Below, piece by piece: positions 7,310-43,393 of a DNA stretch of 64,000 nucleotides. The translations under genes were made by a program, and so were the position numbers. Location of the stretch: positions 114,595 to 178,594 of the forward strand of contig FR899774.1 in NCBI GenBank assembly GCA_000437355.1, read 5' to 3'. The notes beneath the pieces are model-generated. The model worked only from the letters and a program-made list of their open reading frames with translations, made no database searches and was not told the DNA's origin. Each line of letters opens with the position of its first letter. The first letter of the stretch is position 1. Source of the stretch: Firmicutes bacterium CAG:460 (lineage in GTDB: Bacteria; Bacillota_I; Bacilli_A; RF39; UBA660).

Positions 7310-7633
7310 ATGTATAATTATCCTTTTAAAGAAAATGAAGAACATGTGTTAAATGAAACAGAAAACGTTAATATTAAATTTGCTAATAGAAATATACTTG
7401 TTAATATTTTGTTAACCAATAAAAATGTTTTAGTATTTTATGATACTGAGAAAGATAATGCTATGAAAGCTGGAGGAATGCAAGTAATGCCTCAGTATGA
7501 AATAGTTTTTAAAATTGATTTAGGTAATATGGATTATAAAATAAATGAAGAAGATACAGTAGTTAATATTGATGGTAAAGAAGTTATTTTATATAATTTT
7601 AATTTAAAAAATTTCATAGAAAAAGATGATTAG
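7310..7633 (+). CDS. Hypothetical small protein
   Basis: ATG at 7310 with AGGTGA SD. No recognisable motif. Convergent with the noc-like gene, overlapping its stop by 4 nt. Confidence 0.5.
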   Translation: MYNYPFKENEEHVLNETENVNIKFANRNILVNILLTNKNVLVFYDTEKDNAMKAGGMQVMPQYEIVFKIDLGNMDYKINEEDTVVNIDGKEVILYNFNLKNFIEKDD

Positions 7634-8730
7634 TTATCATCTTTTTTAATTATTATATTTATATGATATTCGTTTGGTAAACTCATTTCTTCTAGTTTAA
7701 CCTTGTTGCTATCTAAATTTAGGTCACGGATTGTTTTTATAACATAATTTAGATAATCATTGTTTTCATTATTTGTTGGAGTTTCTGGAAAATCTAGCAT
7801 TTCAATTTCTTCAGTTTGATTTTCAGGTACAACACTTTCTTGTTTTGGTATTTCAAATGTTGGGGTAACTTCTGTTGTGTCTAAGTTTGCTGCCGTATCT
7901 TCAAGAAAATTAAAGAATTTGTTTGGCATTTTTTCAGGATTTGAGAAGAATGCATCTGGGGTAATTGGTGTTGTATCAATTAATTTTTCAGGTTCTTCAT
8001 GTGGTACGATATCTTCACTTTCTAAAGCACTTGAAAATAAGTCTTCAATACTTGTTAGATTTTCTTTTTTTGGTTCTTCGTGAGTCTCAACATTAACTGG
8101 AGTTTCAACTGGAGGTAATGTATCAATGTTTTTTATTTCATCTTCAAGCTGTTTTACTGTTAATCTTTCATTTATTATTTTATTTAATAATTCTTTTTGT
8201 TTTTCATGTGATGGAACTTTTAGTAAAGTTCTAGCATGTCTTTCTGATATTTTTTCTGCCAGAATTGCTTCTTGAACTGCTTCATCTAGTGTTAATAACC
8301 TTAATTTATTAGAAATTGCTGATTGAGATAAGCCCATTTTTCTTGCTAATTCTTCTTGGGTCATGTAACCTTTATCAAGAAGTGCTTGGTAAGAACGTGC
8401 TTCTTCAATAGCTGTTAAATCCTTTCTTTGAATATTTTCAACAATTGCTACTTCAGCTGATGTATTATCATCAAGATTAGAGATTACTGCAGGTACTGAA
8501 GCAAGTCCAGCAAGTTTGGCTGCTTTATATCTTCTTTCACCAGCAATTATTTCATATTTATCATTTTTTCTTCTTAAAACTAGTGGTTGAATAATACCAT
8601 GTTGTTTAATAGAAGATGCTAAATCTGAAAGCGATGCATCATCAAAAGATAACCGTGGTTGAAAACGGTTAGGAATTATGTCCTCGATAGGAACTTGTAA
8701 TATTGTTTTTTCCATTTGTGTATTATTCAC
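7630..8730 (-). CDS. noc: ParB/Noc-family CTP-dependent DNA-binding protein, Noc-like HTH, with a ~170-aa low-complexity C-terminal extension
   Basis: Contains PNRFQPR, GERRYKAAKLAG (arginine patch), LSQSAISNKLRLLTL and ISERHARTLL. Immediately downstream of rsmG, the position noc holds in B. subtilis. Confidence 0.7.
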   Translation of the reverse strand: MNNTQMEKTILQVPIEDIIPNRFQPRLSFDDASLSDLASSIKQHGIIQPLVLRRKNDKYEIIAGERRYKAAKLAGLASVPAVISNLDDNTSAEVAIVENIQRKDLTAIEEARSYQALLDKGYMTQEELARKMGLSQSAISNKLRLLTLDEAVQEAILAEKISERHARTLLKVPSHEKQKELLNKIINERLTVKQLEDEIKNIDTLPPVETPVNVETHEEPKKENLTSIEDLFSSALESEDIVPHEEPEKLIDTTPITPDAFFSNPEKMPNKFFNFLEDTAANLDTTEVTPTFEIPKQESVVPENQTEEIEMLDFPETPTNNENNDYLNYVIKTIRDLNLDSNKVKLEEMSLPNEYHINIIIKKDDN

Positions 8731-14177: not shown

Positions 14178-14213
14178 TATATCACATCCTTACTTAATAA
14201 TATAATATTATTT

Positions 14214-14251: not shown

Positions 14252-14282
14252 AATATGATATCTTTTTGTTGTAGGTGAAAAT

Positions 14283-14528: not shown

Positions 14529-14542
14529 TACATGAACTTGTT

Positions 14543-14875
14543 TTAGTTTGTAACTTTAGCATTTAAAGAGTCAGCATAACCAATTAATCTAAGTTGGTCT
14601 TCAGTAGCTAAATAAGTAAATTTTTCTAATAGTGCTATTTCTTTTTCACTTAGGTTTTTTGTAATATATTTTATTGGGGTATCATCATCTGTTAAACCCA
14701 GCAAATAGTCTGTTGAAGTTTCTAAATATTTTGCTAATTTTATTAATACTGTTGCACTTGGATAACCAACTCCAGACTCATACATACTTATTGATTCTTG
14801 AGTTACTCCAACTTCTAAAGCTACATTCAATTGGTTCTTATGTCTTTTTTCTCTAATTTTTCTTAGATTTTCCAT
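14543..14875 (-). CDS. XRE-family helix-turn-helix transcriptional regulator with C-terminal extension
   Basis: LRKIREKRHKNQLNVALEVGVTQESISMYESGVGYPSATVLIKLAKYLETSTDYLL. ATG at 14875 preferred over the GTG at 14893. Confidence 0.8.
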   Translation of the reverse strand: MENLRKIREKRHKNQLNVALEVGVTQESISMYESGVGYPSATVLIKLAKYLETSTDYLLGLTDDDTPIKYITKNLSEKEIALLEKFTYLATEDQLRLIGYADSLNAKVTN

Positions 14876-15074
14876 GTTACTTATTCCTTTCACAAATTAA
14901 TTTTATAATATTAATTTATACTAAAAATAAGTATATATTATATTCTTTATAAAATAAATTTATACAGGCAATAATTTATTATGGTTATAGACATTTTCTT
15001 TACTTATGAAACTAAGAGATTATTGATTATTTTGAAATAATACTTTATAATTTAGCTAGAATATGGAGGTTACT

Positions 15075-15395
15075 ATGAAAAAGTTACTATATGTAAGTAT
15101 AATTTTTGTTGCTGTTTTGGGTATTTCTATTTATATTAATGGTAATAAAAAATTAGATAGTAATATAAATAATGATAAGTATGATACTTTAGGTTTATTA
15201 CTTGAAACTGAAGTTGGTTCTGGAATTTATGAAACATCTAGTTCTGATACTTACCCAACTAGTGGTTATAAATTTAATAGTGAGTTATCGAAATGTGAAA
15301 ATGGCGGAGAACTTTCTTGGGATGATGTAAATAAAAAAGTGGTTTTTTCAGGAAATGTTTCTGATAAATGTTATATCTATTTTGATAAAGAATAA
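15075..15395 (+). CDS. Small secreted/membrane-anchored protein, paralogue of the N-terminal module of the Hint lipoprotein
   Basis: ATG at 15075 with GGAGG SD and an N-terminal hydrophobic anchor. SGIYETSSSDTYPTSGYKFNSELSKCENGGELSWDD..GNVSDKCYIYFDK aligns with residues 53-109 of the 12861-14177 product at about two-thirds identity. Confidence 0.7.
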   Translation: MKKLLYVSIIFVAVLGISIYINGNKKLDSNINNDKYDTLGLLLETEVGSGIYETSSSDTYPTSGYKFNSELSKCENGGELSWDDVNKKVVFSGNVSDKCYIYFDKE

Positions 15396-15399
15396 TCTT

Positions 15400-15423
15400 A
15401 GAACCAAGTATGGTTCTTTTTTT
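15400..15423 (+). terminator. Rho-independent terminator
   Basis: AGAACCA-agta-TGGTTCT followed by TTTTTT. Confidence 0.8.
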
Positions 15424-15444
15424 GTAGGATTTATGGGATGGTTG

Positions 15445-15522
15445 CACCAAATTCCTGCTTTTTCTTTCGCATTTTCACACATTTTTCCATGGTTTTTACA
15501 CTTAATTTTACACAAAATTTCT
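15445..15522 (+). repeat. Left copy of an imperfect ~75-nt direct repeat bracketing the AAA ATPase gene
   Basis: CACCAAATTCC..ATTTTCACACATTTTTCC..ATTTTACACAAAATTTC aligns with 16920-16993. Blocks CACAAAATTCC, ATTTTACACATTTTTCC and ATTTTACACAAAATT are shared, about three-quarters identity by eye. Confidence 0.6.
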
Positions 15523-15552
15523 TAAAAAAAGTAGTTTTTATTTTAACTACTT

Positions 15553-16893
15553 TTATAGTTTTGTCTCAGATATGTATCTTTTTAGTAAGAATGTTAAAAA
15601 ATATGGAAATGTGTAAAATTTACCATTAAAACCAATGTTTTTACTACATAACTTAATACCATATTTTATATCTTTGTACTTTTCGCTATTTATCAAGTTG
15701 TTCAATGAAACAGTTGCATTATCATTTGCTTTAACTTCAACTGGAATTAATGAATTTTTATCTCTAATAAAGAAATCCATTTCTATTGTGCCTTTTTCAT
15801 TTTTATAAAAATACAACCTGTATCCTTCTTTAACTAGCATTTCCCCAATAATATTTTCATATATTGCACCTTTATAAGTATTAAAATTATTATTTTTTCT
15901 TAAATCTTCTTGAGCTTCATCATCTAATGATGCAATTAATAATCCAGTATCTGAGAAATATAATCTATAATTTTCTGGATTATAATTTCCTTTTAAAGGT
16001 AGTTCACAGACCTCCATGCAATATGATATATTCACTATTCCAGCATCAGACAACCAATCTGATACACCTCGATATTCACGATTTCTAGCACCTTCAGTTA
16101 TTTTTGAAATTTGAAATTTCTTGTTTTCATTTCCTAAAAATGCAGCTATCTTTCTATATGCATTTAAAACTCTTGCTTTATCTAAACCTTGAGCATATTT
16201 TGCTATATCCTCTTCATAGTCAAGTAATATTTGTTTTTGCATATCTAGGATGCCACTAAAGTTTTTTTCCTCTACAAATTTAGATACAATGGCTGGCATA
16301 CCACCAACTAACATATATTCTTTAAATAATTCCATCATCACATTCATTTCTGTACTTGATAAAGGTGTACAATTTTTCATACATACATAAAGGTCCTCTA
16401 TTTGACTTTCTTTATAACCTTTAGCCCATAAAAATTCTTCAAAATCCATTGAATACATAATGTAATCCTGTTTATTACCTACACTATTTGACTCAATTTC
16501 ATTATAATTAATGCCCATCATTGAACCAGAACATATTACATCAAACCTTTTATCAATATTAAACGACTTTAATGATGTTGCACAATTAATACAATCTTGA
16601 ATTTCATCGAAAAATATTAATGTTTCGCCAGGTTCAAAAACAAGCTCATTATTAATTAATGATATATTTTTAATTATTTCATCTACTCCAAAGCCACTGT
16701 CAAATATGCTTTTATATTCTTTATGTATTGCAAAATTTATTTCAATAAAGTTTTTATAATTATTTTTCGCAAAATTTTCTATTGCATCTGTTTTTCCTAT
16801 TTGTCTAGCACCTTTTACTATAAGTGGCATTTTAAAATCTGAGTTTTTCCAATCTATTAAAAATTGGTCAATTTTTCGCTTTAATCTTGGCAT
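15553..16893 (-). CDS. AAA+ ATPase of the AAA_14/DUF4143 type
   Basis: Walker A GARQIGKT and Walker B LIFFDEIQ. The long C-terminal region has the DUF4143-like layout. GAGGTGA SD upstream of ATG at 16893. Confidence 0.75.
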   Translation of the reverse strand: MPRLKRKIDQFLIDWKNSDFKMPLIVKGARQIGKTDAIENFAKNNYKNFIEINFAIHKEYKSIFDSGFGVDEIIKNISLINNELVFEPGETLIFFDEIQDCINCATSLKSFNIDKRFDVICSGSMMGINYNEIESNSVGNKQDYIMYSMDFEEFLWAKGYKESQIEDLYVCMKNCTPLSSTEMNVMMELFKEYMLVGGMPAIVSKFVEEKNFSGILDMQKQILLDYEEDIAKYAQGLDKARVLNAYRKIAAFLGNENKKFQISKITEGARNREYRGVSDWLSDAGIVNISYCMEVCELPLKGNYNPENYRLYFSDTGLLIASLDDEAQEDLRKNNNFNTYKGAIYENIIGEMLVKEGYRLYFYKNEKGTIEMDFFIRDKNSLIPVEVKANDNATVSLNNLINSEKYKDIKYGIKLCSKNIGFNGKFYTFPYFLTFLLKRYISETKL

Positions 16894-19260: not shown

Positions 19261-19899
19261 TTACTTTTTTGGGTAAATTTCTTGATGTAATTCATGCATA
19301 AATGTTATTTTAGGAATAGTTCTTACTAATTTTGTTTCTACTAAAATACTTTTTTTAGTTGTAATTTGTTTTGGTGATACATTATTATATTGAATATCTT
19401 CTAAAGCAAATTCTGTTAGTAATTTGTTGTGTAATTCACTGGATAATGCTTGTTTTTTAGCAAAATCTCGAGCAGTTTTTGATGAAACATCTCCTTCATA
19501 AGATAAATAATAGTCATTTATAATAGAAATATTTTTCCAATCATTAAAATTATATAAAATTCTTATTAAACGACATAATTCATATTCTCTAGATTGATAT
19601 AAGCCTTGCATTTCAAATCTATCATAATGTTGGTTTCTATCATAACTTACAAATTTTACTGTATCTAAGCCACTTAAAATTCTATCTATAATATGATAAA
19701 TGTTATAAAGGGCCACTTGGTAATAAATATCGGTGTTAATTATTTGTTCTTTTCCACTTTTACTTAAATAATCTTTTGTTACTGCAAATTCTAGTTCTAT
19801 TAAAGATAATAAGTACTCATAAACTTCATTTGTTAATTTATCTTTGTTTTGGAGTAATAGTTGTTTTAAATTAGATTTTGCTTCAAAAATACTTGCCAT
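19261..19899 (-). CDS. Hypothetical protein (212 aa from ATG at 19899)
   Basis: GAGGAAG SD. No motif recognised. Lies between rpmH and the dnaA upstream region. Confidence 0.55.
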   Translation of the reverse strand: MASIFEAKSNLKQLLLQNKDKLTNEVYEYLLSLIELEFAVTKDYLSKSGKEQIINTDIYYQVALYNIYHIIDRILSGLDTVKFVSYDRNQHYDRFEMQGLYQSREYELCRLIRILYNFNDWKNISIINDYYLSYEGDVSSKTARDFAKKQALSSELHNKLLTEFALEDIQYNNVSPKQITTKKSILVETKLVRTIPKITFMHELHQEIYPKK

Positions 19900-19947
19900 A
19901 ATAATACTTCCTCTCAAATTAAGAAATATTTTAACATATTTTCAAAA

Positions 19948-20766
19948 TTAATCAACTATTTTAGGTAGATTATAGATAAATGTAAATTTATAATAGTTTG
20001 TTTTTAAACTTTTGTTGTAGTCGTACATTTTAGAAAATTTTGTATTATATTCAATACCATCTTTTAGTATATATAATATAATGTTGCACCATTCAGGATG
20101 TCTTAAATAGAAATTACTTGTTGTGTAATATTTTTTTACTTCATAAAAATCATATTCTAAAATTACTTGTTCATAAATTGTTATATCTTCATTAATCGTT
20201 AAAATACCAAATGTTGTGACTTTAGGTTTACCCATGAACATACTTATAGCGCCGGAGTTTATAAATAAATGATGACGATATTCTAATTCAAAATTACGAT
20301 GGGTGTGTGCAAAAAGGTAAATGTCTGCATTAAAATCGTTGATAAGTTTATTAAAAAGATTTAGGGATGATTTGGTAACAATTTCTCTGGTTTTATATGG
20401 ACTTCCATGTGACATACATATTTTTTTATTAGCAATAGTGATGGTTTTTGTAGTAGGTAGTGTTTTTAAATATTCTAGGTTTTTTTTAGTTAAAGAGTGA
20501 TAAGTGTAATAAAATGAATCAAATTTTTCTGTTAATTCTGCACTTTTTGGAGTTAGTTTTAAAATAGCTTCTTCACGGTTTCCTAGAATTATTTCAGCAT
20601 TTAGGGATTTTAGAGTATCAATTATCTTGTTATCATCAGGTCCATCAGTTAAAAAATCTCCGCAGACTAAAAATTTAGATATATTTTTATCTTTTAAATA
20701 TTCTAAGGCTTTATTTAATAAATATAGATTTCCGTGGATATCATTTAATATTGCTACTTTTTCCAT
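19948..20766 (-). CDS. Calcineurin-like metallophosphoesterase
   Basis: Motifs DIHGN, GDFLTDGPD, GNRE and AHTH in the canonical order. Confidence 0.8.
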   Translation of the reverse strand: MEKVAILNDIHGNLYLLNKALEYLKDKNISKFLVCGDFLTDGPDDNKIIDTLKSLNAEIILGNREEAILKLTPKSAELTEKFDSFYYTYHSLTKKNLEYLKTLPTTKTITIANKKICMSHGSPYKTREIVTKSSLNLFNKLINDFNADIYLFAHTHRNFELEYRHHLFINSGAISMFMGKPKVTTFGILTINEDITIYEQVILEYDFYEVKKYYTTSNFYLRHPEWCNIILYILKDGIEYNTKFSKMYDYNKSLKTNYYKFTFIYNLPKIVD

Positions 20767-20817
20767 TTTACATCATTATGATTATAACACAAATTTTTGT
20801 TAATAACTAGCTATTTT

Positions 20818-21023
20818 TGTGGATTGTGGATAAAATGTTGATAACTAATAAAAATTATCCACGAAATTAACAACATTTTATCAAAATAGAGTTTGTTGAT
20901 ATAATGGGGATAAGTTCATTGTTAACAAAAATTTGTTGATAGTGTTGATAAGTCGTTTTAAGTAGCATATATTAGGGATTTTTTAGGTGAATAATTTTGT
21001 GGATAAAAAAAAAGTTATCAAAA
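20818..21023. other. oriC part 1: DnaA-box cluster upstream of dnaA
   Basis: Perfect TGTGGATAA at 20825-20833 and 20998-21006. One-mismatch boxes: TGTTGATAA at 20836-20844 and 20943-20951, TTATCCACG at 20855-20863. Weaker boxes at 20818, 20894, 20934 and 21015. Confidence 0.85.
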
Positions 21024-21099
21024 TTGCAAATTTACTCTTTTATTTTTTGTAAAAATAGGTTAAAATTTAGTTATGAAATTTAGTTAGCGGGGTGAGGTT

Positions 21100-22443
21100 T
21101 TGAAAACTGATGAAATTTTTACACGTTTTTTAGAAGAGATGCAAAATCAAGTAACTCCTTCGGCTTATAGTATTTGGTTTTCAAAATTAGAGCTTCTTTC
21201 TATTGTTAACAATGTTGTTACAATAAAGGTTCCTCTTAACGTGCATAAACAAATGCTTGGAGGTACTTATAAAGAAATTATCGCTAATTCTTTCTTTTCA
21301 ATAACTGGTATTTATTATACATTTAATTTTATAACGGAAGATGAAGTGGAAACTTTTGTGGAACCAGTTGTACCTGAAGATGCTGTGGATAAAGAAATTG
21401 CATGGAATACTAATTTAAATCCAAAATTTACTTTTGATAATTATGTTGTTGGTAATTCAAATAGATTAGCATTTGTGGCGGCGAGAGCTGTTGCAGAAGC
21501 ACCGGGGACTATTCATAATCCATTATTTATTTATGGAAGAAGTGGAATAGGGAAGACACATTTGATGCAAGCAATAGGTAATTATATTAAAGACCATTCT
21601 AAGTTAAAAGTATTATATACGACAAGTAATGAATTTAGAGATGAATTTACTGGAATTGCTACAAGTAATAATAAAATGGGTTATGCAAATGATTTTAAAG
21701 ATAAATATCGAAGTGTTGATGTATTAATAATAGATGATATTCAGTTTCTAGTAGAAGCTGAGAAAACTCAACAAGAGTTCTTCCATACATTTAATGCACT
21801 TCATCAAGCTAATAAACAGATAATTATTAGTAGTGATAAGAGCCCAGATGATTTGAAAAAGATTGAGGAACGTCTTAGAAGTAGATTTATGTGGGGACTT
21901 CCTGTTGATATTTATCCACCAGATTTCAACTTAAGATGTGATATTATAAGGTCAAAAATTAAAAATACAAGTATTGAAAATAAATTAAATGAAGATGTTA
22001 TAGAATATATTGCTAATTCATGTGTTAATGATGTTAGACACATTGAAGGAACTATAAACAGGTTGCTAGCTTACACTGCAATGATGGTTCCTGATAGAAT
22101 TACTTTGGATTTTGCTAATGAAGCTTTGAATGATTATGTTAATACTAACATATTTATCAACAATTCAATAGGTTCAATACAAAATGCTGTGGCAGAATAC
22201 TTTAAAATATCGGTAGATGACTTAAAAAGTAAGAGAAGAACAAATACAGTAGTTAAACCAAGGCATATTGCAATGTACTTATGTAGAGTTGAAACAGATG
22301 AAAATTTACAGAAAATTGGACTAGAATTCGGTGGAAGAGACCATTCTACAGTATCTACAGCAATTGATAAGATTAAAGAAGAGTTAGAAACTAATCCAAA
22401 TTTAAATAACATATTAAAAGAAATAAAAATGAAGTTACAATAA
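21100..22443 (+). CDS. dnaA: Chromosomal replication initiator protein DnaA
   Basis: Walker A GRSGIGKTHL, sensor/box VII region, C-terminal HTH (RHIAMYLCR..GGRDHSTV). TTG start. Confidence 0.98.
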   Translation: MKTDEIFTRFLEEMQNQVTPSAYSIWFSKLELLSIVNNVVTIKVPLNVHKQMLGGTYKEIIANSFFSITGIYYTFNFITEDEVETFVEPVVPEDAVDKEIAWNTNLNPKFTFDNYVVGNSNRLAFVAARAVAEAPGTIHNPLFIYGRSGIGKTHLMQAIGNYIKDHSKLKVLYTTSNEFRDEFTGIATSNNKMGYANDFKDKYRSVDVLIIDDIQFLVEAEKTQQEFFHTFNALHQANKQIIISSDKSPDDLKKIEERLRSRFMWGLPVDIYPPDFNLRCDIIRSKIKNTSIENKLNEDVIEYIANSCVNDVRHIEGTINRLLAYTAMMVPDRITLDFANEALNDYVNTNIFINNSIGSIQNAVAEYFKISVDDLKSKRRTNTVVKPRHIAMYLCRVETDENLQKIGLEFGGRDHSTVSTAIDKIKEELETNPNLNNILKEIKMKLQ

Positions 22444-22548
22444 TGTTGATAAAATGGGGGTAAAAAATTAAGATTTTTCTAGGAAATAAAAGAATGTTAA
22501 TTAGTTATCCACGTTATTAACGCTATTAATAAATAATAATAAATAAAC
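22444..22548. other. oriC part 2: DnaA boxes plus an AT-only candidate unwinding element between dnaA and dnaN
   Basis: TGTTGATAA at 22444-22452 and TTATCCACG at 22505-22513, followed by an uninterrupted A/T run with TAA repeats (about 22524-22548). Confidence 0.65.
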
Positions 22549-22571
22549 ATAAAGAAAGAAGGATGTAAAAT

Positions 22572-23690: not shown

Positions 23691-23788
23691 TTATGAAGAA
23701 AATGAACAAAATTGCACTTGTTCGTTTTTTTTCGACAAATTTTTTTACTTTGATGTGGTATTATAACCAACTAAGAAAGGAGGATATT

Positions 23789-24214
23789 ATGTTTAAAATT
23801 AGTAATAATACCCTTTTTATGGAGTTTGATGGAAGTAATACTTTAGTTATGGAAGCTGATGCTGATTATGTATTTGATGGAGATGTAATAAATACTATTT
23901 TAGATGAAAGTTGTATTTATTATGGAAGTTCATTAAATGGAAGAATTAAAGGAAGTAAAAATATAATAGGAAGTTATTATAAATTACCAGTTATAGTTAG
24001 TGAAAGAAATAATATTGTGTTTTTTCCTCTTAAAAAAGGTAATTGTTGGTGGTGGATTAATTTTAATAGTGTTAAATATTTTGAAAAAACTAGTAATGGA
24101 GTTCTGGTAAGTTTTAAAAATGAACTAAAAAAATATATAAGTGTTAGTTATACAATATTTAATAATCAAATGCTTAAATGTAGTAGATTGTGGTTAGTTT
24201 ATACAACAAGATAA
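23789..24214 (+). CDS. comK: ComK-family competence transcription factor-like protein
   Basis: ATG at 23789 with AAGGAGG SD. ILDESCIYYGSSLNGRIKGS..YKLPVIVS..IVFFPL..CWWWIN..VSF..ISVSYTIFNNQ follows the ComK pattern SC.FFGSS..GR...K.PI....FP...C.WI....F....S...F.NQ. Confidence 0.7.
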   Translation: MFKISNNTLFMEFDGSNTLVMEADADYVFDGDVINTILDESCIYYGSSLNGRIKGSKNIIGSYYKLPVIVSERNNIVFFPLKKGNCWWWINFNSVKYFEKTSNGVLVSFKNELKKYISVSYTIFNNQMLKCSRLWLVYTTR

Positions 24215-27360: not shown

Positions 27361-29862
27361 ATGGATCATAGTAGAGATAGACTAGAAGAAAATAATATAG
27401 TAAGTGAAATTGAATCTTCTTTTATTGAATATTCAATGAGTGTTATTATTTCCAGAGCTTTACCAGATTTAAGAGATGGTTTAAAGCCAGTTCATAGAAG
27501 AATTATTTATGATATGTTAGAAAATGGTTTAACACCAGATAAAAAACATCGTAAGAGTGCGACGATAGTTGGGGATGTTATGGGGAAATATCACCCTCAT
27601 GGAGACTCATCAATTTATGAAGCTATGGTAAGAATGGCTCAAGATTTTAACTATCGTTATTTACTTGTTGATGGACATGGTAACTTTGGTAATATTGAAT
27701 ATCCTAGAGCAGCTGCTTATCGTTATACTGAAAGTAAACTTGCAAAGATATCAATGGAGCTTTTAAGGGATATCAACAAAAATACGGTTAATTTTGTACC
27801 AAATTATGATGATTCAACTGAAGAACCTGAAGTTTTACCTTCAAGATTTCCAAATATTTTAGTTAATGGAACAATGGGTATTGCTGTTGGTATGGCAACA
27901 AATATTCCACCACATAATTTAGGTGAGGTTATTGATGGATGTATTGCTTATATTGATAATCCTGAAATTACTACGGAAGAATTAATGCAATATGTTAAAG
28001 GCCCTGATTTTCCAACTGGTGGTATTATTCTAGGTAATTCTGGAATTAAAAAAGCGTATGAAACTGGTAGAGGTTCAATAACTATTAGAAGTAAAGCTAC
28101 AATTGAAGAAAAAAATGGAAGACATTATATTGTTATTGAAGAAGTTCCATACGGAGTAAATACACTAGATTTAAAACAAAAAGTTGCGGATTTAGTACAT
28201 AATAAAGTACTTGAAGGTATTACTGATTATCATACTGATTTAAAAGATGGTATTAAGATTACTATTACATTAAAGAAGGATGCAAATCCTCAAGTAGTTT
28301 TAAATAATTTGTATAAACATACTGCTTTTCAAACAACTTTTGGTATTATCTTCTTAATGCTTGATAAAGGTGTTCCAAGAACACTAGGTTTGAAAGATAT
28401 AATTAGTAAATATGTAGATTATCAACAAGAAATTATTATTAGAAGAACTCAATTTGAATTAGATAAAGCAGAAAAAAGAGTACATATCTTAGAAGGTTAC
28501 CAAATTGTATTTGATAATATCGATGAAGTTATTAAGATTATTAAAGAGTCTAAGGCTGATGGTGAAGCAAAGCTTAAATTAATGGAACGTTTTGGATTAA
28601 CTGAAGCTCAAACTGATAATATTTTAGAAATGAAATTACGTCGTTTAACAGGTCTAGAACGTGAAAAGATTGAAGAAGAACTAAATACTTTAAAACTAGA
28701 AATAGAACGCTTACGTGGCATTTTAGCAGATAATAATAAGGTGTTAGGTATCATTAAAGATGAAATGACTGAAATAAAAAATAAATATGGTGATGAAAGA
28801 AGAACTAAAATTGATATGACTGCGGTTGATTACATTGAAGATGAGTCTTTAATACCAGAAGAAAATATCTTAGTTGTGCTTACTAACAAAGGTTATATTA
28901 AGAGAACTACATCTGATACATTTAAGTCACAAAATAGAGGTGGCGTTGGAATTAAGGGAATGTCTACGAATGATGAAGACTTTGTTGAACACATGATTAA
29001 CTTATCAACACACGATTACATCTTGTTCTTTACTGATAAAGGTAAAGTTTATAGATTAAAAGGTTATGAAATTCCAGAGTTTTCACGTCAATCTAAAGGA
29101 ATTCCAATTGTTAACTTACTTCAAGTTGAAAAAGATGAAAGAGTTAATGCTGTTATCCAAATAAGTCGTGAAGAAGAATGTAAATATTTATTATTCGCTA
29201 CTGAAGGTGGAGTTGTAAAGAAAACATTAATTAGTGAATTTGCTAATATTAGAAATAGTGGTAAGATTTGTATTTCTCTAAGAGAAAATGATAAATTAAT
29301 TGATGTTAAGAAAACAACTGGTAATGATTTAGTACTTTTAGGTAGTGATAGCGGTAGAATGGTTAAGTTTAATGAAGATGAAATCAGAGTTATGGGACGT
29401 ACTGCTTCAGGTGTTCGTGGTATTTCTCTAGATGGAAGCAAATGTATTTGTTCTGAAATCGTTAAAGAAGATGATACTATCTTACTTGTAACAGAAAAAG
29501 GTTACGGTAAACAAACAAAAGTTAGTGAATATCGCCAAACAAGAAGAGGTTCTAAAGGTGTTAAAGCAATGAATATCACTGAAAAGAACGGAAATCTTGT
29601 TAGTGTTAAAATTGTTTATGAAGGTAAAGAACTTGTTATTATGACAAATTCAGGTATGACAATGAGAATGCCTTTAGAACAAATATCTTTATTAGGTCGT
29701 GTTACACAAGGTTTAAGACTTATCAACTTAAAAGATAATCAAAAGGTATCAACTATAAGCTTAGTAGATAAAGAAGAAGAACCAGATATTGTTTCAGAAC
29801 CTACTGTAAATGAAACACCTAGTGAAAATACTGAAAATATTGAAGTAAATGAGGCTGAATAA
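27361..29862 (+). CDS. gyrA: DNA gyrase subunit A
   Basis: DGLKPVHRR, catalytic-Tyr region AAYRYTE, QRDR-like [11 protein letters not shown]-terminal beta-pinwheel repeats. Confidence 0.98.
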
Positions 29863-30036
29863 GCCTTTTTTATTTTATTGTAACAGTGTATATAAAGTAT
29901 ATACAATGTTATTTTTGCTATAAGATTATGATATTATAACTAAAGCAAAAAAGAAGAATATAAGTTATCAACAAAATATTTATTTTAAGTACTCTTTAAT
30001 TGGTAAAACAATTTATTATTTTTTTGTAAAGTGTTA

Positions 30037-30783
30037 TGTTTCACGTGAAACAATGTGTGAATAATATGTTAGTTTAGGATTTATTTTTTTTAATATATTT
30101 TTAAAATTATAATACAATAACAATAATTAAAAATAATTAATATTGTTTTCGATGTTTAAATTCTTTTTCTAATTATTATTATAATTATAGTGATGTTTCA
30201 CGTGAAACATTGTGTTGATAAGTTGTTGATTTAAGATATATTTATAATATTAAATATTTTATATTTTAAATTATCTTTTTATTATTATTAATTACTATAT
30301 TTTAATATATATTTATTTTATATATTTTAAAATACATGTTTCACGTGAAACATTGTTGATAAGTTGTTTATATTAATATTATTTCTATTAATTCTAATCT
30401 TTTTTAATAATATAAATACCATGTGATTATTAAAATAATTTAATGTTTCACGTGAAACATTGTGTTGATAATATGTTTATATTCTGTTTTAGTTTAATTA
30501 TTATATTAAATTTAATCTTTTTCCAATTTAAATTATATGTTTCACGTGAAACATATTGTTGATAACGTGTTAATTTAAGGTTTATCTATATTAATATGTA
30601 TTTTTAATATTATAATACAAGATTTTCGTAAATATATATTTAATATTATTAATCGTTAATTATTATTTTTAAATTCTATATAATTTCCTATTAAAAATTT
30701 AGGTAATGTTTCACGTGAAACATTGTTAATAGGTTGTGAATAGTTTTATTGAAAATTAATACCCATATGTTACACGTGAAACA
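30037..30783. promoter_or_regulatory. Array of seven parS (ParB-binding centromere) sites
   Basis: TGTTTCACGTGAAACA at 30037-30052, 30194-30209, 30337-30352, 30444-30459, 30538-30553 and 30707-30722. TGTTACACGTGAAACA at 30768-30783. All fit the Firmicute parS consensus TGTTNCACGTGAAACA. Confidence 0.85.
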
Positions 30784-30865
30784 TATGGACGAACAAATGT
30801 ACAATAAACTAATACTTTAACATAAGAATTTAATTATTCATTTTTATCAAATCGTATTTATAAAT

Positions 30866-30881
30866 TATTTCCCGGGAAATA
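30866..30881. promoter_or_regulatory. Noc-binding site (NBS), perfect 16-mer
   Basis: TATTTCCCGGGAAATA, containing the published B. subtilis NBS core ATTTCCCGGGAAAT. It lies inside a 22-bp perfect palindrome (30863-30884). Confidence 0.75.
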
Positions 30882-31022
30882 ATTAGTTAACATAATATTT
30901 TAGTATATTTGTGTTTTTTTGAAAAAATAAATGTTAATTAAAGCTAGATACAATAAGGTAAAAACAAGAATAGCAAGATTAAAAAAATTATTATTTTAAC
31001 AATTATTTAATTTTTGAATAAA

Positions 31023-31038
31023 TATTTCCCGGGAAATA
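31023..31038. promoter_or_regulatory. Noc-binding site (NBS), perfect 16-mer
   Basis: TATTTCCCGGGAAATA. It is part of a 38-nt direct repeat (31024-31061) that matches 30867-30904 at 37 of 38 positions and also carries a GTTAAC palindrome. Confidence 0.75.
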
Positions 31039-31207
31039 ATTGGTTAACATAATATTTTAGTCGATTAAACTTATATTAATATTTAATTTTTGGCATATTT
31101 TAGCCAAAATATTAATCATAATTAAAAATAGTACATGAGTTATCAACATAAAAATTAGTTAAATATTTAATACTATAATAACTATATAATAAATGTTGGT
31201 ATTTTAC

Positions 31208-31236
31208 TTGACTTTTAAATAGTAATTTGATACGAT
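31208..31236 (+). promoter_or_regulatory. Sigma-A type promoter of the SRP RNA gene
   Basis: TTGACT (31208-31213), 17-nt spacer, TACGAT (31231-31236). Confidence 0.6.
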
Positions 31237-31240
31237 GTAA

Positions 31241-31320
31241 ACGTGCAACAAATATGCTGTAACCTGGTCAGGATTGGAAAATAGCAGCCACATCAGCCTA
31301 TGTTTGTGTGCACATTTTTT
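31241..31320 (+). ncRNA. ffs: Small (4.5S-type) signal recognition particle RNA
   Basis: CCUGGUCAGGAUUGGAAAAUAGCAGCC matches the conserved domain IV (GGUCAGG..GGAA..AGCAGCC). The 5' GTGCAACAAATATGCTG pairs with the 3' CAGCCTATGTTTGTGTGCAC. A T-run follows. The position upstream of tadA/dnaX is typical. Confidence 0.8.
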
Positions 31321-31331
31321 TTGGAGGTAAA

Positions 31332-35382: not shown

Positions 35383-36148
35383 AGTTTATGGTGTTATATT
35401 TAATGATATTGATAAGAAGTATTATTATTTAGGTGATGAAGAATTTGCTGAGGGTTCCTTAGTTATTGTTAATACTGAAAGAGGAATGCAACTAGTTAAA
35501 GTTGTTCAAGTTATAGATAAAATAAGTGAAGAAATAACTGATAAAATTGAAAGACTTGCAACAGAAGAAGAGTATGAACAATATTTAGAAAATTTAAAAG
35601 ATGCAAGTATTGCATTAAAAAAATGTATTGAGTTTGTACGAGAATTGGAATTAGAAATGAATGTTGTAAGTGCTCAATTTAATTTAGATAGAAGTCAATT
35701 ATTATTTAATTTTACTGCAGATGGTAGAGTTGATTTTAGAGAGCTTGCTAAGAAACTTGCAAGTATATATCATACAAGAATTGAATTAAGACAAATAGGT
35801 GCTCGTGATAAAGCTAAAGAAATTGGTGGAATTGGTGTTTGTGGCGGAGAACTTTGTTGTCTTAGATTTTTGAAAAAAATGGATACAATTAGTATGAATA
35901 TGGCTAAAAATCAAAATTTAGCATTAAATCCTTCAAAGATAAATGGGGCTTGTGGAAGGCTTCTTTGTTGTTTAGCATATGAAGATGAAACTTATATTGA
36001 AGCAGCTAAAAAGCTACCTAAAGTTGGAGATAAAATTAAAACTAGAAGTGGTGATGCTCAAGTTTTAAGTGTTGATATAATAAATCATCGAGGAAAAATT
36101 TTATTAGATGGAGAAAGAATAAATTATGATTTCGAAAGTGAAGAATGA
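35375..36148 (+). CDS. ricT: PSP1-domain protein RicT (YaaT)
   Basis: TTG at 35375 with AGGTGA SD gives MNKVYGVIFND.., as in YaaT. Cys cluster GVCGGELCCLRF..ACGRLLCCLAYE. Confidence 0.85.
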   Translation: MNKVYGVIFNDIDKKYYYLGDEEFAEGSLVIVNTERGMQLVKVVQVIDKISEEITDKIERLATEEEYEQYLENLKDASIALKKCIEFVRELELEMNVVSAQFNLDRSQLLFNFTADGRVDFRELAKKLASIYHTRIELRQIGARDKAKEIGGIGVCGGELCCLRFLKKMDTISMNMAKNQNLALNPSKINGACGRLLCCLAYEDETYIEAAKKLPKVGDKIKTRSGDAQVLSVDIINHRGKILLDGERINYDFESEE

Positions 36149-36842
36149 TTTATTTGATTATCCAAATAGATACATTATGCAAATAAAAGATGGATTTAAG
36201 TTTTCTTTAGATTCTTTATTGTTAGCAGAGTTTGTAAATATTAGAAAAAGTGATAAGATTATTTTGGATATGTGTACTGGAAATGCTCCGATTCCTTTAA
36301 TTTTAAGTTTAAAAACAGATGCTTTAATTGTAGGATTTGAAATTCAAAAAGATATTAGTGATTTGGCTCAAGAGTCTGTAATACTCAATGGATTAAAAGA
36401 TAATATTAGAATAATAAATGATGATATAAAAAATATAAATAAACATTATAAAACGGGAACATTTGATATAATAACATGTAATCCCCCATATTTTAAAACT
36501 AGTGAGGATGGTTACAAAAATAAAAATGATTATTTAACACTTGCAAGACATGAAATAACAATTGATTTAGATAGTTTGTTTAGTATAGCAAAGAGTTATT
36601 TAAAAGATAATGGTGTTTTTTGTTTAGTTCATCGTGCTGAAAGATTAGATGATATTATGTATTTGGGAAGAATAAATAATTTAAATGTAAAAGATTTACA
36701 ATTTATATCTACTAAAAATGGAAGTATTCCAAATACAATATTAGTTAAATGTGTTAAAAATAGTAAACCAGGTGTTAAATTAAGAAAAGAAATTTGTGTT
36801 GATAACCTTAGTACTTATCAACATATATTTGAAAGTAGGTGA
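36126..36842 (+). CDS. SAM-dependent tRNA (adenine-N6)-methyltransferase, YabB/TrmN6-like
   Basis: DMCTGNAPIPL SAM motif and NPPYF catalytic motif. Synteny after ricT. Confidence 0.75.
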   Translation: MISKVKNDLFDYPNRYIMQIKDGFKFSLDSLLLAEFVNIRKSDKIILDMCTGNAPIPLILSLKTDALIVGFEIQKDISDLAQESVILNGLKDNIRIINDDIKNINKHYKTGTFDIITCNPPYFKTSEDGYKNKNDYLTLARHEITIDLDSLFSIAKSYLKDNGVFCLVHRAERLDDIMYLGRINNLNVKDLQFISTKNGSIPNTILVKCVKNSKPGVKLRKEICVDNLSTYQHIFESR

Positions 36843-41149: not shown

Positions 41150-41360
41150 AAACTATGTTTAGTTTAACGAAGAAGGAAAGAGTAGGTATCTTAGTTTCAT
41201 AGAGATTTCTTGGTTGGTGGAAAAGAAAAAATGAAGATATACGAACATGGCTCTGGAGTTAAAATCGGGTAATTACGTTAAAGATTTTAAGTTGCATGAT
41301 AAATCATGAATTAAGGTGGTACCGCGGGTTATACTCGTCCTTAGTTTGTGATTTTTTTAT
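41150..41360 (+). promoter_or_regulatory. T-box leader (tRNA-sensing riboswitch), probable Met specifier
   Basis: AGAGA box and GGUGG distal region (41201-41220). Candidate specifier AUG followed by A at 41231-41234. F-box-like ACGUUA. T-box AAGGTGGTACCGCG at 41313-41326. Terminator arms 41301-41316 and 41339-41354 compete with the AAGG/CCTT antiterminator, and a T-run follows. Confidence 0.75.
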
Positions 41361-41370
41361 TGGAGGAAAT

Positions 41371-41868
41371 ATGAGAAAGTTTGAGAAAATAAGTTATCCT
41401 GAATTTGTTAAAGTCTTTGGTGATAATAAAACTTTATATGATGATTATATGCTCCCTTTAAGAGGGACAAAGTATAGTGCAGGTTATGATTTTTTTGCTA
41501 TAAAAGATTATGTTATAAAACCAAATGAAATTTTAAAAATACCAACTGGTTACAAAGCAACATTTGAAAGTGATGAAATGCTAATGATTGTAGTTAGAAG
41601 TAGCATGGGTTTTAAATATAATGTTAGACTTACAAATCAGGTGGGAATAATTGAAAGTGATTATTATAATAATCCAGATAATGAAGGACATATGTGGGTA
41701 TGTCTTCAAAATCATGGAGATAAAGAATATATAATTAATAAAGGAGATGCTTATGCTCAAGGGATTTTTGTTAAATTTTTAACAACGGATGATGATTGTG
41801 TTAATAAAACAAGAGTTGGCGGGCTAGGCAGTACAAATAAAAAGAAAGAAGGAAATGAAAATGAATAA
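41371..41868 (+). CDS. dut: dUTP diphosphatase (trimeric dUTPase family)
   Basis: Motifs SAGYDF, VRSSMG, GIIESDYY and C-terminal RVGGLGST. ATG at 41371 with GGAGG SD; the track ORF start lies in the T-box leader. Confidence 0.8.
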   Translation: MRKFEKISYPEFVKVFGDNKTLYDDYMLPLRGTKYSAGYDFFAIKDYVIKPNEILKIPTGYKATFESDEMLMIVVRSSMGFKYNVRLTNQVGIIESDYYNNPDNEGHMWVCLQNHGDKEYIINKGDAYAQGIFVKFLTTDDDCVNKTRVGGLGSTNKKKEGNENE

Positions 41869-43393
41869 AAAATATTATATTACTACACCAATATATTATC
41901 CAAGTGCGGATTTTCATATTGGACATTGTTATACAACTATTATTGCAGATGCTATTGCAAGATATAAAAGATTAAATGGTTATGATGTGTTTTTCCAAAC
42001 AGGAACTGATGAACACGGAGCAAAAATTGAACAAAAAGCTAAAGATGCTGGTGTTACCCCAAAAGAATATGTTGATGTTATAATTGAAAATGCTAAAAAT
42101 TTATGGAAAAGTTTAAATATCTCATATGATTATTTTATTAGAACAACTGATGAAAATCACGTAAAAGCTGTTCAAAAAATATTTAGAAAATTATATGACC
42201 AAGGAGATATTTATAAAGGTTCTTATGAAGGACTTTATTGTGTTCCTTGTGAATCTTTTTGGACAGAAACTCAACTTGTTGATGGTAAATGTCCAGATTG
42301 TGGTCGTGAAGTTAAAACTGTTACTGAAGAAGCTTATTTCTTTAAGTTATCTAAGTATCAAGATAAATTAATTGAATTATATGATAAAAATCCAGAATTT
42401 ATTTTACCAGTTTCAAGAAAAAATGAACTTGTAAATAACTTCATTAAACCAGGACTTGAAGACTTATGTGTTTCAAGAACTTCAGTTAAATGGGGAATTC
42501 CTGTAGATTTTGACCCAAAACATGTTATTTATGTATGGATTGATGCTTTATCAAACTATATTACATCATTAGGTTATCCAGATGAAAATGCTCCATTGTT
42601 TAAAAAATATTGGCCAGCAGACCTACATTTAGTAGGTAAAGAAATCACAAGATTTCATGCTATTATTTGGCCAGCACTTCTTATGGCTTTAGGAATTGAA
42701 ATACCTCATCAAGTGTTTGGTCATGGATGGTTAATTATTAATGGCGGTAAAATTTCTAAATCATTAGGAAACTATAAAGACCCAAGAGAATATATTGATG
42801 CTTATGGAGTTGATGCCGTTAGATATTTTGCTTTAAGAGAGGTATCTTTTGGTAGTGATGGCGCTTTCTCTGAAGAAGCATTAATTAATAGAACAAATGC
42901 TGATTTGGTAAATAACTTAGGAAATTTAGTTAATAGAACTATAAGTATGAGCCATAAATACTTTGATGGTGTGGTAGAAAATCCAAAAGTAAATGAAGAA
43001 ATAGATAATGATTTAATTAGTGCTGTTACAAGTTTAAAAGCAAAAGTTGATGAAAAAATGGCTGGTTTAAAAGTAAATGAAGCTTTAGAAGAAATATTTG
43101 AAGTATTAAAAAGATGTAATAAATATATTGATGAAACTACACCATGGATACTTGCTAAAGATGAAACAAAACATGATAGATTAAAAACAGTTTTATATAA
43201 TATCTTAGAAGGTATTAGAGTATGTGCTATACTTCTTGAACCATTTATTAATGTTACAAGTGAAAAGATATTAAATGAACTTAATACAAATGAAAGAAGT
43301 ATTGAAAGCATAAGTGATTTTGGTAATTTAGAATGTGGAATTACTTTAAATAAGCCAGAAATATTATTTAATAGGATTGAGATTAATGAATAA
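41861..43393 (+). CDS. metG: Methionine-tRNA ligase (short form)
   Basis: HIGH (ADFHIGH), KISKS, zinc knuckles CVPCESF..CPDCG. ATG at 41861 has better SD spacing than 41855. Confidence 0.95.
   Translation: MNKKYYITTPIYYPSADFHIGHCYTTIIADAIARYKRLNGYDVFFQTGTDEHGAKIEQKAKDAGVTPKEYVDVIIENAKNLWKSLNISYDYFIRTTDENHVKAVQKIFRKLYDQGDIYKGSYEGLYCVPCESFWTETQLVDGKCPDCGREVKTVTEEAYFFKLSKYQDKLIELYDKNPEFILPVSRKNELVNNFIKPGLEDLCVSRTSVKWGIPVDFDPKHVIYVWIDALSNYITSLGYPDENAPLFKKYWPADLHLVGKEITRFHAIIWPALLMALGIEIPHQVFGHGWLIINGGKISKSLGNYKDPREYIDAYGVDAVRYFALREVSFGSDGAFSEEALINRTNADLVNNLGNLVNRTISMSHKYFDGVVENPKVNEEIDNDLISAVTSLKAKVDEKMAGLKVNEALEEIFEVLKRCNKYIDETTPWILAKDETKHDRLKTVLYNILEGIRVCAILLEPFINVTSEKILNELNTNERSIESISDFGNLECGITLNKPEILFNRIEINE

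What the first reader, a model, noticed from the sequence alone, without database searches (positions are those of the whole stretch)
29863..31207. Plasmid-centromere-like array of seven parS sites in a dedicated 1.35-kb ORF-free slot downstream of gyrA
The gyrA-ffs spacer has no ORF of 60 codons or more. It contains seven matches to the Firmicute parS consensus TGTTNCACGTGAAACA. Six are the perfect palindrome TGTTTCACGTGAAACA (starts 30037, 30194, 30337, 30444, 30538, 30707) and one is TGTTACACGTGAAACA (30768). Start-to-start spacings are 157, 143, 107, 94, 169 and 61 bp. Several sites extend to 18-22 bp perfect palindromes, for example ATATGTTTCACGTGAAACATAT at 30535-30556. In the well-studied chromosomes I know (B. 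subtilis, Caulobacter, Pseudomonas), parS sites are single and dispersed over kilobases, often inside genes. Seven within 750 bp of non-coding DNA resembles a plasmid centromere. B. subtilis has rrnO after gyrA; here that slot is occupied by this array. No parA/soj gene and no Spo0J-type ParB are present in the window.
Basis: partly seen in the sequence, partly recalled or inferred. Interest (0 to 1): 0.8.

Follow-up and report, generated by a model that had tools for sequence, protein, structure and literature searches.

The report
Composite chromosome centromere beside gyrA
A 1.35-kb gene-free stretch about 9 kb from the replication origin of an uncultured gut bacterium carries seven docking sites for the chromosome-segregation protein ParB (five of them abutted by a site for the replication initiator DnaA) and two sites for the ParB relative Noc, and the same mixed array recurs at this spot throughout its lineage, so it offers a natural system for studying how segregation, replication and division control are linked.

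Summary
There are six perfect TGTTTCACGTGAAACA sites and one TGTTACACGTGAAACA at the stated coordinates, where chance predicts none. They lie in an ORF-free gyrA-ffs spacer about 9 kb right of oriC.

- Five of the seven parS are followed 1-3 nt later by a DnaA box, all in one orientation.
- Two perfect Noc-binding sites (TATTTCCCGGGAAATA) lie in the same spacer.
- A ParB-family gene is present in the window (7630-8730, after rsmG). Its specificity residues are Noc-type, and it lacks Noc's membrane-targeting helix.

The array is not plasmid-like. All 22 related genomes with enough sequence have 2-10 parS directly after gyrA, and 16 also have NBS there, some in strict alternation. NBS-parS distances across the clade show a 10.5-bp periodicity. 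Within the species, the motifs are more conserved than the spacers between them.

Best reading: this is the chromosome's main ParB-loading centromere, combined with Noc-type and DnaA sites. The parS-specific ParB was not found within 84 kb, and the rest of the genome was out of reach. Clustered chromosomal parS are already known, but this three-way, phased architecture appears not to be.

The parts
30037..30052 (.). parS 1, perfect TGTTTCACGTGAAACA
30056..30064 (-). DnaA box TTATTCACA (fits TTATNCACA), 3 nt after parS 1
30194..30209 (.). parS 2, perfect
30213..30221 (-). DnaA-box variant TTATCAACA, 3 nt after parS 2
30337..30352 (.). parS 3, perfect
30354..30362 (-). DnaA-box variant TTATCAACA, 1 nt after parS 3
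30444..30459 (.). parS 4, perfect
30463..30471 (-). DnaA-box variant TTATCAACA, 3 nt after parS 4
30538..30553 (.). parS 5, perfect; core of the 22-nt palindrome at 30535-30556
30557..30565 (-). DnaA-box variant TTATCAACA, 3 nt after parS 5
30707..30722 (.). parS 6, perfect; followed by a degenerate box TGTTAATAG at 30724-30732
30768..30783 (.). parS 7, TGTTACACGTGAAACA (one half-site change); has no adjacent box; degraded or absent in some strains
30866..30881 (.). Noc-binding site 1, perfect TATTTCCCGGGAAATA, inside a 47-nt direct repeat (30863-30909)
31023..31038 (.). Noc-binding site 2, perfect, inside the second copy of the 47-nt repeat (31020-31066)
29965..29973 (+). Flanking DnaA-box variant TTATCAACA, 72 nt (start to start) before parS 1; conserved in all 10 strains
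31140..31148 (+). Flanking DnaA-box variant TTATCAACA, about 60 nt upstream of the ffs promoter-like site; conserved in all 10 strains
27361..29862 (+). gyrA, with a terminator-like hairpin at 29851-29867; left border of the slot
31237..31322 (+). ffs (small SRP RNA); right border of the slot; promoter-like site at 31208-31236
7630..8730 (-). ParB-family gene directly after rsmG/gidB. Its specificity residues are Noc-type (Q, K, T, R at Caulobacter positions 173/179/184/201). It has no N-terminal membrane-targeting helix, and it has an acidic linker followed by a Noc-like C-terminal domain. Predicted binder of the two NBS sites.
20767..22571 (.). oriC region: DnaA boxes upstream of dnaA (20825-21006), dnaA itself (21100-22443), and the dnaA-dnaN spacer with boxes and an AT-rich stretch. 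The GC-skew minimum lies at about 20 kb.

Best explanation
The gyrA-ffs spacer is the chromosome's main centromere, and it is built as a composite landing pad for three proteins.

1. The seven parS palindromes nucleate a parS-specific ParB dimer. That ParB is encoded elsewhere in the genome and was not found here. By the established ParB mechanism, it closes into CTP-bound clamps that slide onto flanking DNA. This builds the partition complex and recruits SMC about 9 kb from oriC. Packing many sites into 750 bp raises the loading rate at one point.
2. The two NBS palindromes nucleate the Noc-type paralogue encoded at 7630-8730 in the same way. That protein lacks Noc's membrane-targeting helix, so it probably acts at the origin region rather than as a classical membrane-tethering nucleoid-occlusion factor.
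3. DnaA boxes placed 1-3 nt from five of the parS recruit DnaA next to ParB. This couples, or titrates, the initiator at the centromere.

Shown here: the sites, their chance-excluding density, their clade-wide conservation at this slot, purifying selection on the motifs, the discreteness of the two palindrome classes, the phasing of NBS-parS pairs, and the Noc-type residues of the encoded protein.

Inferred: actual binding, clamp loading, SMC recruitment, and any DnaA-ParB or ParB-Noc interplay.
For: - Site density: seven parS against 0.00 expected, and none elsewhere in the window or in 10 kb beyond each end.
- Position: close to the origin.
- Conservation across the clade: 22 of 22 related genomes with enough sequence have 2-10 parS within 2.5 kb after gyrA, and 16 of 22 also have NBS there. 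Of 120 metagenome contigs picked only for an NBS-parS pair, 118 are low-GC; the gyrA and tadA/dnaX matches on most of them put the pair in the same slot.
- Conservation within the species: in 10 strains, motif columns vary at 5 of 207 positions against 91 of 1167 for the rest of the spacer (p = 0.003). Copy number varies between 6 and 7.
- Two discrete site classes: 475 pure parS, 334 pure NBS and only 6 mixed sites, which implies two separate homodimeric binders.
- The window's ParB-family protein and 118 of its 120 best homologues carry Q173, K179 and R201. In Jalal 2020 this combination gives NBS specificity, whereas parS-specific variants have an invariable R173 (PMC7383237).
- DnaA boxes next to parS: 72 of 908 distinct parS half-flanks have a box against 50 of 4077 random positions (odds ratio 6.9, p = 3e-24), and 61 of the 72 lie at a gap of 0-3 nt. 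TTATCAACA is enriched about tenfold in the window and also occurs at the true oriC. Relatives carry canonical TTATCCACA at the same place beside parS.
- Phasing: NBS-parS distances peak at 26, 36, 47, 58 and 68 bp. The period is 10.5 bp (p = 0.0002; p = 0.004-0.015 after strict de-duplication). parS-parS distances show no periodicity.
Against: - No parS-specific ParB (R173/G201 type) and no Soj was found in the window, in 10 kb beyond either end, or in any of 222 fetched loci of the clade. The canonical noc-soj-spo0J operon is reduced to the Noc-type gene alone throughout the clade. The binder of parS is therefore assumed, not seen.
- In this window the NBS sites are 98 and 255 bp from the last parS, not paired as in relatives.
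- Only 35 of 144 loci have a DnaA box beside a parS, so that part is not universal.
- TTATCAACA departs from the classical box at a conserved position, and its binding by DnaA is untested.
- The periodicity test cannot fully remove shared ancestry.
Confidence: 0.7

Rival explanations
1. The spacer is mainly a DnaA-titration or replication-control locus. It would resemble the oriC-proximal DnaA-box clusters of B. subtilis or E. coli datA, and the parS sites would be secondary.
For: The spacer has the highest density of DnaA-box-like motifs in the window: 7 per 1.35 kb, more than the region upstream of dnaA. A weaker second box-like element, TGTTnAT, follows each box at an 11-nt pitch. DnaA-box clusters outside oriC are known in B. 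subtilis (Okumura 2012, cited in PMC6852036).
Against: Across the clade, parS are universal in this slot (22 of 22), whereas a DnaA box beside a parS occurs in only 35 of 144 loci. The boxes follow the parS rather than the reverse.
Confidence: 0.1
2. The spacer is an operator array. The ParB-family proteins would act as KorB-like transcriptional regulators of the neighbouring ffs-tadA-dnaX genes or of gyrBA.
For: The array lies between a terminator-like hairpin and the ffs promoter-like site. One DnaA box sits about 60 nt upstream of that promoter. ParB-family repressors such as KorB appeared among the PDB matches.
Against: Seven to sixteen sites spread over up to 2 kb is far more than an operator needs. 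In L017 the array lies downstream of ffs. Site numbers and spacings change freely between relatives, while the neighbouring genes stay the same.
Confidence: 0.07
3. The spacer is the centromere of an integrated plasmid or phage.
For: The multi-copy iterated architecture fits. Relatives have regular tandem units of 64, 82 and 125 bp (L014, L017, L015), which resemble F sopC (my own knowledge).
Against: There are no parAB, rep or integrase genes nearby. Housekeeping synteny is identical across a deep clade. Erysipelotrichales relatives already have 1-2 parS upstream of tadA.
Confidence: 0.03
4. The spacer holds a neutral or selfish repeat family (satellite or MITE-like) that happens to resemble parS.
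For: Copy number varies between strains (a 94-bp unit indel), and relatives show tandem amplification.
Against: No copy occurs elsewhere in 84 kb. Only the protein-site cores are conserved while the spacers diverge. The palindromes remain perfect across a clade whose GyrA proteins are only 44-81% identical to the window's.
Confidence: 0.03
5. The spacer is a second replication origin or an unwinding element.
For: It combines DnaA boxes with DNA of 12-20% GC.
Against: The GC-skew minimum and the gene-orientation switch lie at dnaA, 9 kb away. A standard bipartite oriC flanks dnaA. In most relatives the arrays lack DnaA boxes.
Confidence: 0.03

Closest known systems
Clustered chromosomal parS centromeres (C. 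glutamicum: ten parS in 35 kb; Caulobacter: five within 5 kb; M. xanthus: 24 upstream of parAB)
   Same: Several consensus 16-bp parS, mostly intergenic, in one origin-proximal cluster that serves as the ParB loading zone (PMC7083940, PMC5815017, PMC3778016).
   Different: This array is far denser, with 7 sites in 750 bp. It is not next to parAB. It occupies a fixed gyrA-ffs slot across a clade. It is interleaved with NBS and DnaA boxes.
DnaA boxes within the Caulobacter centromere (Mera et al. 2014, as reviewed in PMC6399470)
   Same: The replication initiator has binding sites inside the parS region, linking initiation to segregation.
   Different: Here the box abuts the parS palindrome at 0-3 nt, is repeated with each unit, and occurs in Firmicutes. 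Binding has not been shown.
B. subtilis Noc-NBS nucleoid occlusion system
   Same: The 16-bp site is identical (TATTTCCCGGGAAATA). The protein is a ParB paralogue encoded after gidB with Q173, K179 and R201 and a Noc-like C-terminal domain.
   Different: The protein lacks the N-terminal amphipathic membrane-targeting helix that nucleoid occlusion requires (PMC8429893), and it carries a long acidic linker. The sites are concentrated beside parS at the origin rather than only scattered around the chromosome.
S. aureus Noc as a brake on DnaA-dependent initiation (PMC5540599)
   Same: It is a functional link between a Noc-type protein, the origin region and DnaA.
   Different: In S. aureus the mechanism is unknown and no site array is involved. 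Here the link is only suggested by site juxtaposition.
noc-[parS cluster + NBS]-soj-spo0J arrangement seen on metagenome contig L190 (GC 49%)
   Same: Four parS and one NBS lie in one roughly 900-bp non-coding spacer next to a Noc-type gene.
   Different: In L190 the sites sit inside the canonical par operon, with soj and a parS-type spo0J (R, S, N, G) alongside. In the window's clade soj and spo0J are gone from that locus and the sites lie after gyrA.
Plasmid F sopC (tandem 43-bp centromere repeats; my own knowledge)
   Same: An iterated array of ParB-family binding sites, and relatives show regular tandem units.
   Different: The present array is chromosomal, has no adjacent partition operon, uses canonical chromosomal parS, and has irregular spacing in the window.

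Membership tests
Chromosomal parS centromere (ParABS) | 16-bp palindrome matching TGTTNCACGTGAAACA | tested here: met
   Six perfect sites and one with a single half-site change; 0.00 expected by chance
Chromosomal parS centromere (ParABS) | Origin-proximal position | tested here: met
   About 9 kb from dnaA and the GC-skew minimum
Chromosomal parS centromere (ParABS) | Cognate parS-specific ParB (R173/G201 type) encoded in the genome | tested here: inconclusive
   None found in the window, in 10 kb beyond each end, or in any fetched locus. The rest of the roughly 1.5-Mb genome could not be reached.
Chromosomal parS centromere (ParABS) | ParB nucleation and CTP-dependent spreading at the sites | not testable with these tools
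   Needs ChIP-seq or in vitro loading assays
Chromosomal parS centromere (ParABS) | Sites conserved under selection in relatives | tested here: met
   22 of 22 relatives. Motif columns are less variable than spacer columns (p = 0.003).
Noc-NBS system | 16-bp NBS palindrome TATTTCCCGGGAAATA | tested here: met
   Two perfect copies, the only ones in 84 kb
Noc-NBS system | ParB paralogue with NBS-specificity residues (Q173, R201, and K at 179 or 184) | tested here: met
   Q, K, T, R in the window protein. 118 of 120 homologues are Q-K-[S/T/N]-R. The rule is from PMC7383237.
Noc-NBS system | N-terminal amphipathic membrane-targeting helix | tested here: not met
   The ORF is maximal, and its residue 4-7 aligns to residue 22-27 of the Noc chains. 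Homologues have a median of about 17 residues before NRFQPR. The requirement is stated in PMC8429893.
Noc-NBS system | NBS scattered around the chromosome and sparse near the terminus | tested here: inconclusive
   Only 84 kb was seen, and both sites lie in the array. Relatives also have single NBS inside nearby genes.
DnaA-box cluster (DBC/datA-like) | Several DnaA boxes within 1 mismatch of TTATCCACA, outside oriC | tested here: met
   Seven in 1.35 kb, the densest stretch in the window
DnaA-box cluster (DBC/datA-like) | The box variant is one that the organism uses at its own oriC | tested here: met
   TTATCAACA occurs at 20836, 20943 and 22444 next to canonical boxes, and 23 times in the window against 2.2 expected
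DnaA-box cluster (DBC/datA-like) | DnaA binding and an effect on initiation | not testable with these tools
   Needs EMSA or ChIP and marker-frequency analysis
Plasmid-type centromere (sopC-like) | Adjacent parA-parB operon on a mobile replicon | tested here: not met
   No ParA or ParB within 20 kb of the array. Chromosomal synteny is conserved.
Plasmid-type centromere (sopC-like) | Regular head-to-tail repeat units | tested here: not met
   TRF finds no array of the parS units in the window. Regular units do occur in relatives L014, L015 and L017.

The most novel reading that the evidence does not exclude
The spacer is an origin-organising centre where ParB, a membrane-helix-less Noc paralogue and DnaA are loaded side by side in a fixed rotational register. 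NBS and parS dyads would sit about n+0.5 helical turns apart, and DnaA boxes would touch parS. In this lineage the Noc-type protein would then be a second centromere clamp that co-assembles with ParB, not a nucleoid-occlusion factor. Such mixed tandem arrays would also be the setting in which NBS arose from duplicated parS units, preserving an early stage of Noc evolution.
Probability: 0.25. Interest if true: 0.85.

Novelty: new variant of a known kind. Interest (0 to 1): 0.65.

Why it matters
ParB and Noc are the textbook pair of paralogues that diverged to recognise sites differing at two bases per half-site, and their sites are normally treated as separate systems. Here the two site classes are deliberately juxtaposed and rotationally phased across a large uncultured gut lineage. 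They sit together with DnaA boxes that touch parS, and the Noc-type protein lacks its membrane anchor.

If the sites are bound as predicted, three questions become testable on a natural substrate:
- Do ParB and Noc clamps interact, or block each other?
- How is DnaA coupled to the centromere in a lineage where no soj was found at the canonical locus?
- What did Noc do before it became a nucleoid-occlusion factor?

On the practical side, the array is a compact natural high-density loading pad for two orthogonal ParB-family labels.

Tried and rejected
1. Search for the parS-specific ParB and Soj. I walked 10 kb beyond each window end. I made synteny look-ups around four orthologues of the Noc-type gene. 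Only the Noc-type gene turned up. The rest of the genome therefore stayed out of reach.
2. Regular tandem repeat: TRF finds none for the parS units in the window.
3. Structured RNA or small ORF in the spacer: Rfam at E <= 1 finds only ffs, and no ORF exceeds 39 aa.
4. Heterodimer (half-parS/half-NBS) sites: 6 of 815, so rejected.
5. Dual specificity of the Noc-type protein for parS: rejected on the published rule that parS binders have an invariable R173.
6. Naming the organism: the cluster look-up returned no names. The titles of related records say only 'uncultured Bacilli'.
7. Periodicity in parS-parS spacing: none (p = 0.73).

Full report
**Observation.** A pattern search finds exactly seven sites matching TGTTNCACGTGAAACA with at most one mismatch in the 64-kb window. 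All lie at the coordinates given: six are perfect, and 30768 is TGTTACACGTGAAACA. Shuffled sequence gives 0.00 expected. The spacings and the extended palindromes are as described. The spacer is bounded by gyrA (27361-29862) and the SRP RNA gene (31237-31322). It holds no ORF above 39 aa and no other Rfam match. The GC-skew minimum, the switch in gene orientation, and canonical DnaA boxes on both sides of dnaA (21100-22443) place oriC about 9 kb to the left.

- The repeat unit is longer than parS. Aligning the seven units gives ATGTTTCACGTGAAACAT-nn-TGTTGATAA-nn-TGTT.
- TGTTGATAA is the reverse complement of TTATCAACA, one base away from the DnaA box TTATCCACA. It occurs 23 times in the window against 2.2 expected, including next to canonical boxes at oriC.
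- Units 1-5 each carry a box within one mismatch of TTATCCACA, 1-3 nt after parS and all in the same orientation. Unit 6 has a degenerate box and unit 7 has none. Two more boxes flank the array. With 7 boxes in 1.35 kb, the spacer is the most box-dense stretch of the window.
- Two perfect copies of TATTTCCCGGGAAATA lie at 30866 and 31023, each inside a 47-nt direct repeat. This is the 16-bp Noc-binding site used in the ParB/Noc literature.
- A ParB-family gene lies in the window at 7630-8730(-), directly after rsmG.

**The encoded ParB-family protein.**
- Its best matches among solved structures are Noc (195 bits), ahead of B. subtilis Spo0J (176 bits).
- Read from that alignment, the four specificity positions defined by Jalal et al. 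(Caulobacter numbering 173/179/184/201) are Q, K, T, R.
- That paper shows that Q173 reads the NBS-specific adenine, R201 reads the NBS-specific cytosine, and one lysine at 179 or 184 suffices. It also shows that parS-specific variants have an invariable R173 (PMC7383237).
- The protein is therefore predicted to bind NBS and not parS. Of its 120 best homologues, 118 are Q-K-[S/T/N]-R.
- It is not a standard Noc. The ORF is maximal, yet its residues 4-7 align to residues 22-27 of the Noc chains. It therefore lacks the N-terminal amphipathic helix that Noc needs to bind the membrane (PMC8429893).
- All 150 best cluster representatives likewise start at the core domain.
- It has an acidic linker with a conserved EIEMLDF-like motif, followed by a Noc-like C-terminal domain.
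- No soj or spo0J follows it, either here or in four relatives.

**Relatives.**
- GyrA relatives in the genome collection are uncultured gut Bacilli MAGs with 23-31% GC.
- All 22 with at least 400 nt after gyrA carry 2-10 parS within 2.5 kb, and 16 also carry NBS there.
- In several the two sites alternate in regular tandem units: L014 has eight 64-bp units, L017 has about seven 82-bp units, and L015 has six 125-bp units.
- In four of the five relatives checked the array lies between gyrA and ffs; in L017 it lies after ffs.
- Ordinary Bacilli have no such sites there, and a Lysinibacillus genome has an rRNA operon in that position.
- Erysipelotrichales relatives have one or two intergenic parS just upstream of tadA, so the slot is older than the array.
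Of these, 118 are low-GC, and the gyrA and tadA/dnaX matches on most of them place the pair in the same slot.
- One exception, L190 (GC 49%), shows the canonical arrangement: a Noc-type gene, then four parS plus one NBS in a non-coding spacer, then soj and a parS-type spo0J.
- The other exception, L200 (GC 38%), carries the triple composite parS-T-TGTGGATAA-aat-NBS twice.

**Evidence for function.**
- Ten strains of the window's species keep the same layout with 6-7 parS. Motif columns vary at 5 of 207 positions against 91 of 1167 in the rest of the spacer (Fisher p = 0.003).
- Across all loci the palindromes fall into two clean classes, with 475 pure parS, 334 pure NBS and 6 mixed. This argues for two separate homodimeric binders.
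- A DnaA box within one mismatch of consensus lies within 15 nt of 72 of 908 distinct parS half-flanks, against 50 of 4077 random spacer positions (odds ratio 6.9, p = 3e-24). Of those 72, 61 lie at a gap of 0-3 nt.
- NBS-parS centre-to-centre distances peak at 26, 36, 46-47, 58 and 68 bp. The strongest period is 10.5 bp (Monte Carlo p = 0.0002). The signal persists after collapsing pairs whose gap sequences are at least 60% identical (p = 0.015 and 0.004). parS-parS distances show none (p = 0.73).
- These peaks correspond to roughly n+0.5 helical turns.
- Two caveats apply. The metagenome loci were selected for a pair at 21-51 bp, which limits the range but cannot create a period. Shared ancestry is only partly removed.

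**Interpretation.** The most economical reading is a chromosomal centromere. Its dense parS cluster would load a parS-specific ParB, and through it SMC, close to oriC. The same spacer also carries loading sites for the Noc-type paralogue and DnaA boxes. Each element has a precedent:
- Clustered chromosomal parS are known (PMC7083940, PMC5815017, PMC3778016).
- DnaA boxes occur inside the Caulobacter centromere (PMC6399470).
- Noc restrains DnaA-dependent initiation in S. aureus (PMC5540599).
- Spo0J and Noc act together in B. subtilis (PMC6852036).

None of seven full-text searches returned a paper describing the three site types combined in one dedicated, clade-conserved slot, the contact spacing between DnaA box and parS, or the phasing of NBS and parS.

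**Main gap.** No parS-type ParB was found in the 84 kb examined or in any fetched locus, and the tools could not reach the rest of the genome. Its existence is inferred from the strict conservation of perfect parS and from the Q173 rule. All binding, clamp loading, SMC recruitment and protein-protein interplay are inferred.

**Verdict.** The added features make it a new variant of a known kind and of real interest to specialists.

Noticed in passing
window 23693-24214 (+): A ComK-family ORF sits between dnaN and recF. The same arrangement is seen in relatives (L101, L102).
   Followed up: partly
window 12861-16893 (-): A variable island lies between jag and trmE. It holds a PT-HINT pretoxin protein with a Tli3-like hit, an HTH_3 regulator and an AAA_14/DUF4143 ATPase. 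Relatives carry Transposase_mut genes at this position instead.
   Followed up: no
window 19261-20766 (-): A 218-aa ORF with no Pfam match and a metallophosphoesterase are inserted between rnpA/rpmH and the DnaA boxes upstream of dnaA. In relatives rpmH lies directly beside that region.
   Followed up: no
window 7630-8130 (-), C-terminal half of the Noc-type protein: An acidic linker of variable length (whole proteins range from 227 to 821 aa across the family) carries a conserved (E/D)EIE(M/L)LD(D)F motif just before a Noc-like C-terminal domain. The motif looks like a short peptide for docking onto another protein.
   Followed up: partly
L200 97-141 and 516-560: On a GC-38% contig, parS, a perfect DnaA box and an NBS are packed into 45 nt (parS-T-TGTGGATAA-aat-NBS), and this occurs twice.
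   Followed up: partly
L190 741-4110: A GC-49% contig shows the canonical order: a noc-like gene, then four parS plus one NBS in a roughly 900-bp spacer, then soj and spo0J. Multi-parS spacers that include an NBS therefore also exist inside classical par operons.
   Followed up: partly
L036 14134-14346, L049 14208, L075 9300: Erysipelotrichales relatives have one or two intergenic parS just upstream of tadA and another inside dnaX. This suggests the site position predates the arrays.
   Followed up: partly
L001-L004, L020 (for example L004 17820): Perfect NBS sites recur at the same position inside a methyltransferase gene, encoding YFPGNNFD. The window's orthologue (36126-36842) has no NBS there.
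   Followed up: no
window 41161-41345 (+): A T-box leader lies upstream of the methionyl-tRNA synthetase gene (41855-43393). It overlaps the start of a dUTPase-like ORF call (41296-41868).
   Followed up: no
window 30863-30909 and 31020-31066: Each NBS is embedded in a 47-nt direct repeat (91% identical) that also contains GTTAACATAATATTTTAGT. The two copies are 157 nt apart, the same distance as parS 1 to parS 2.
   Followed up: no
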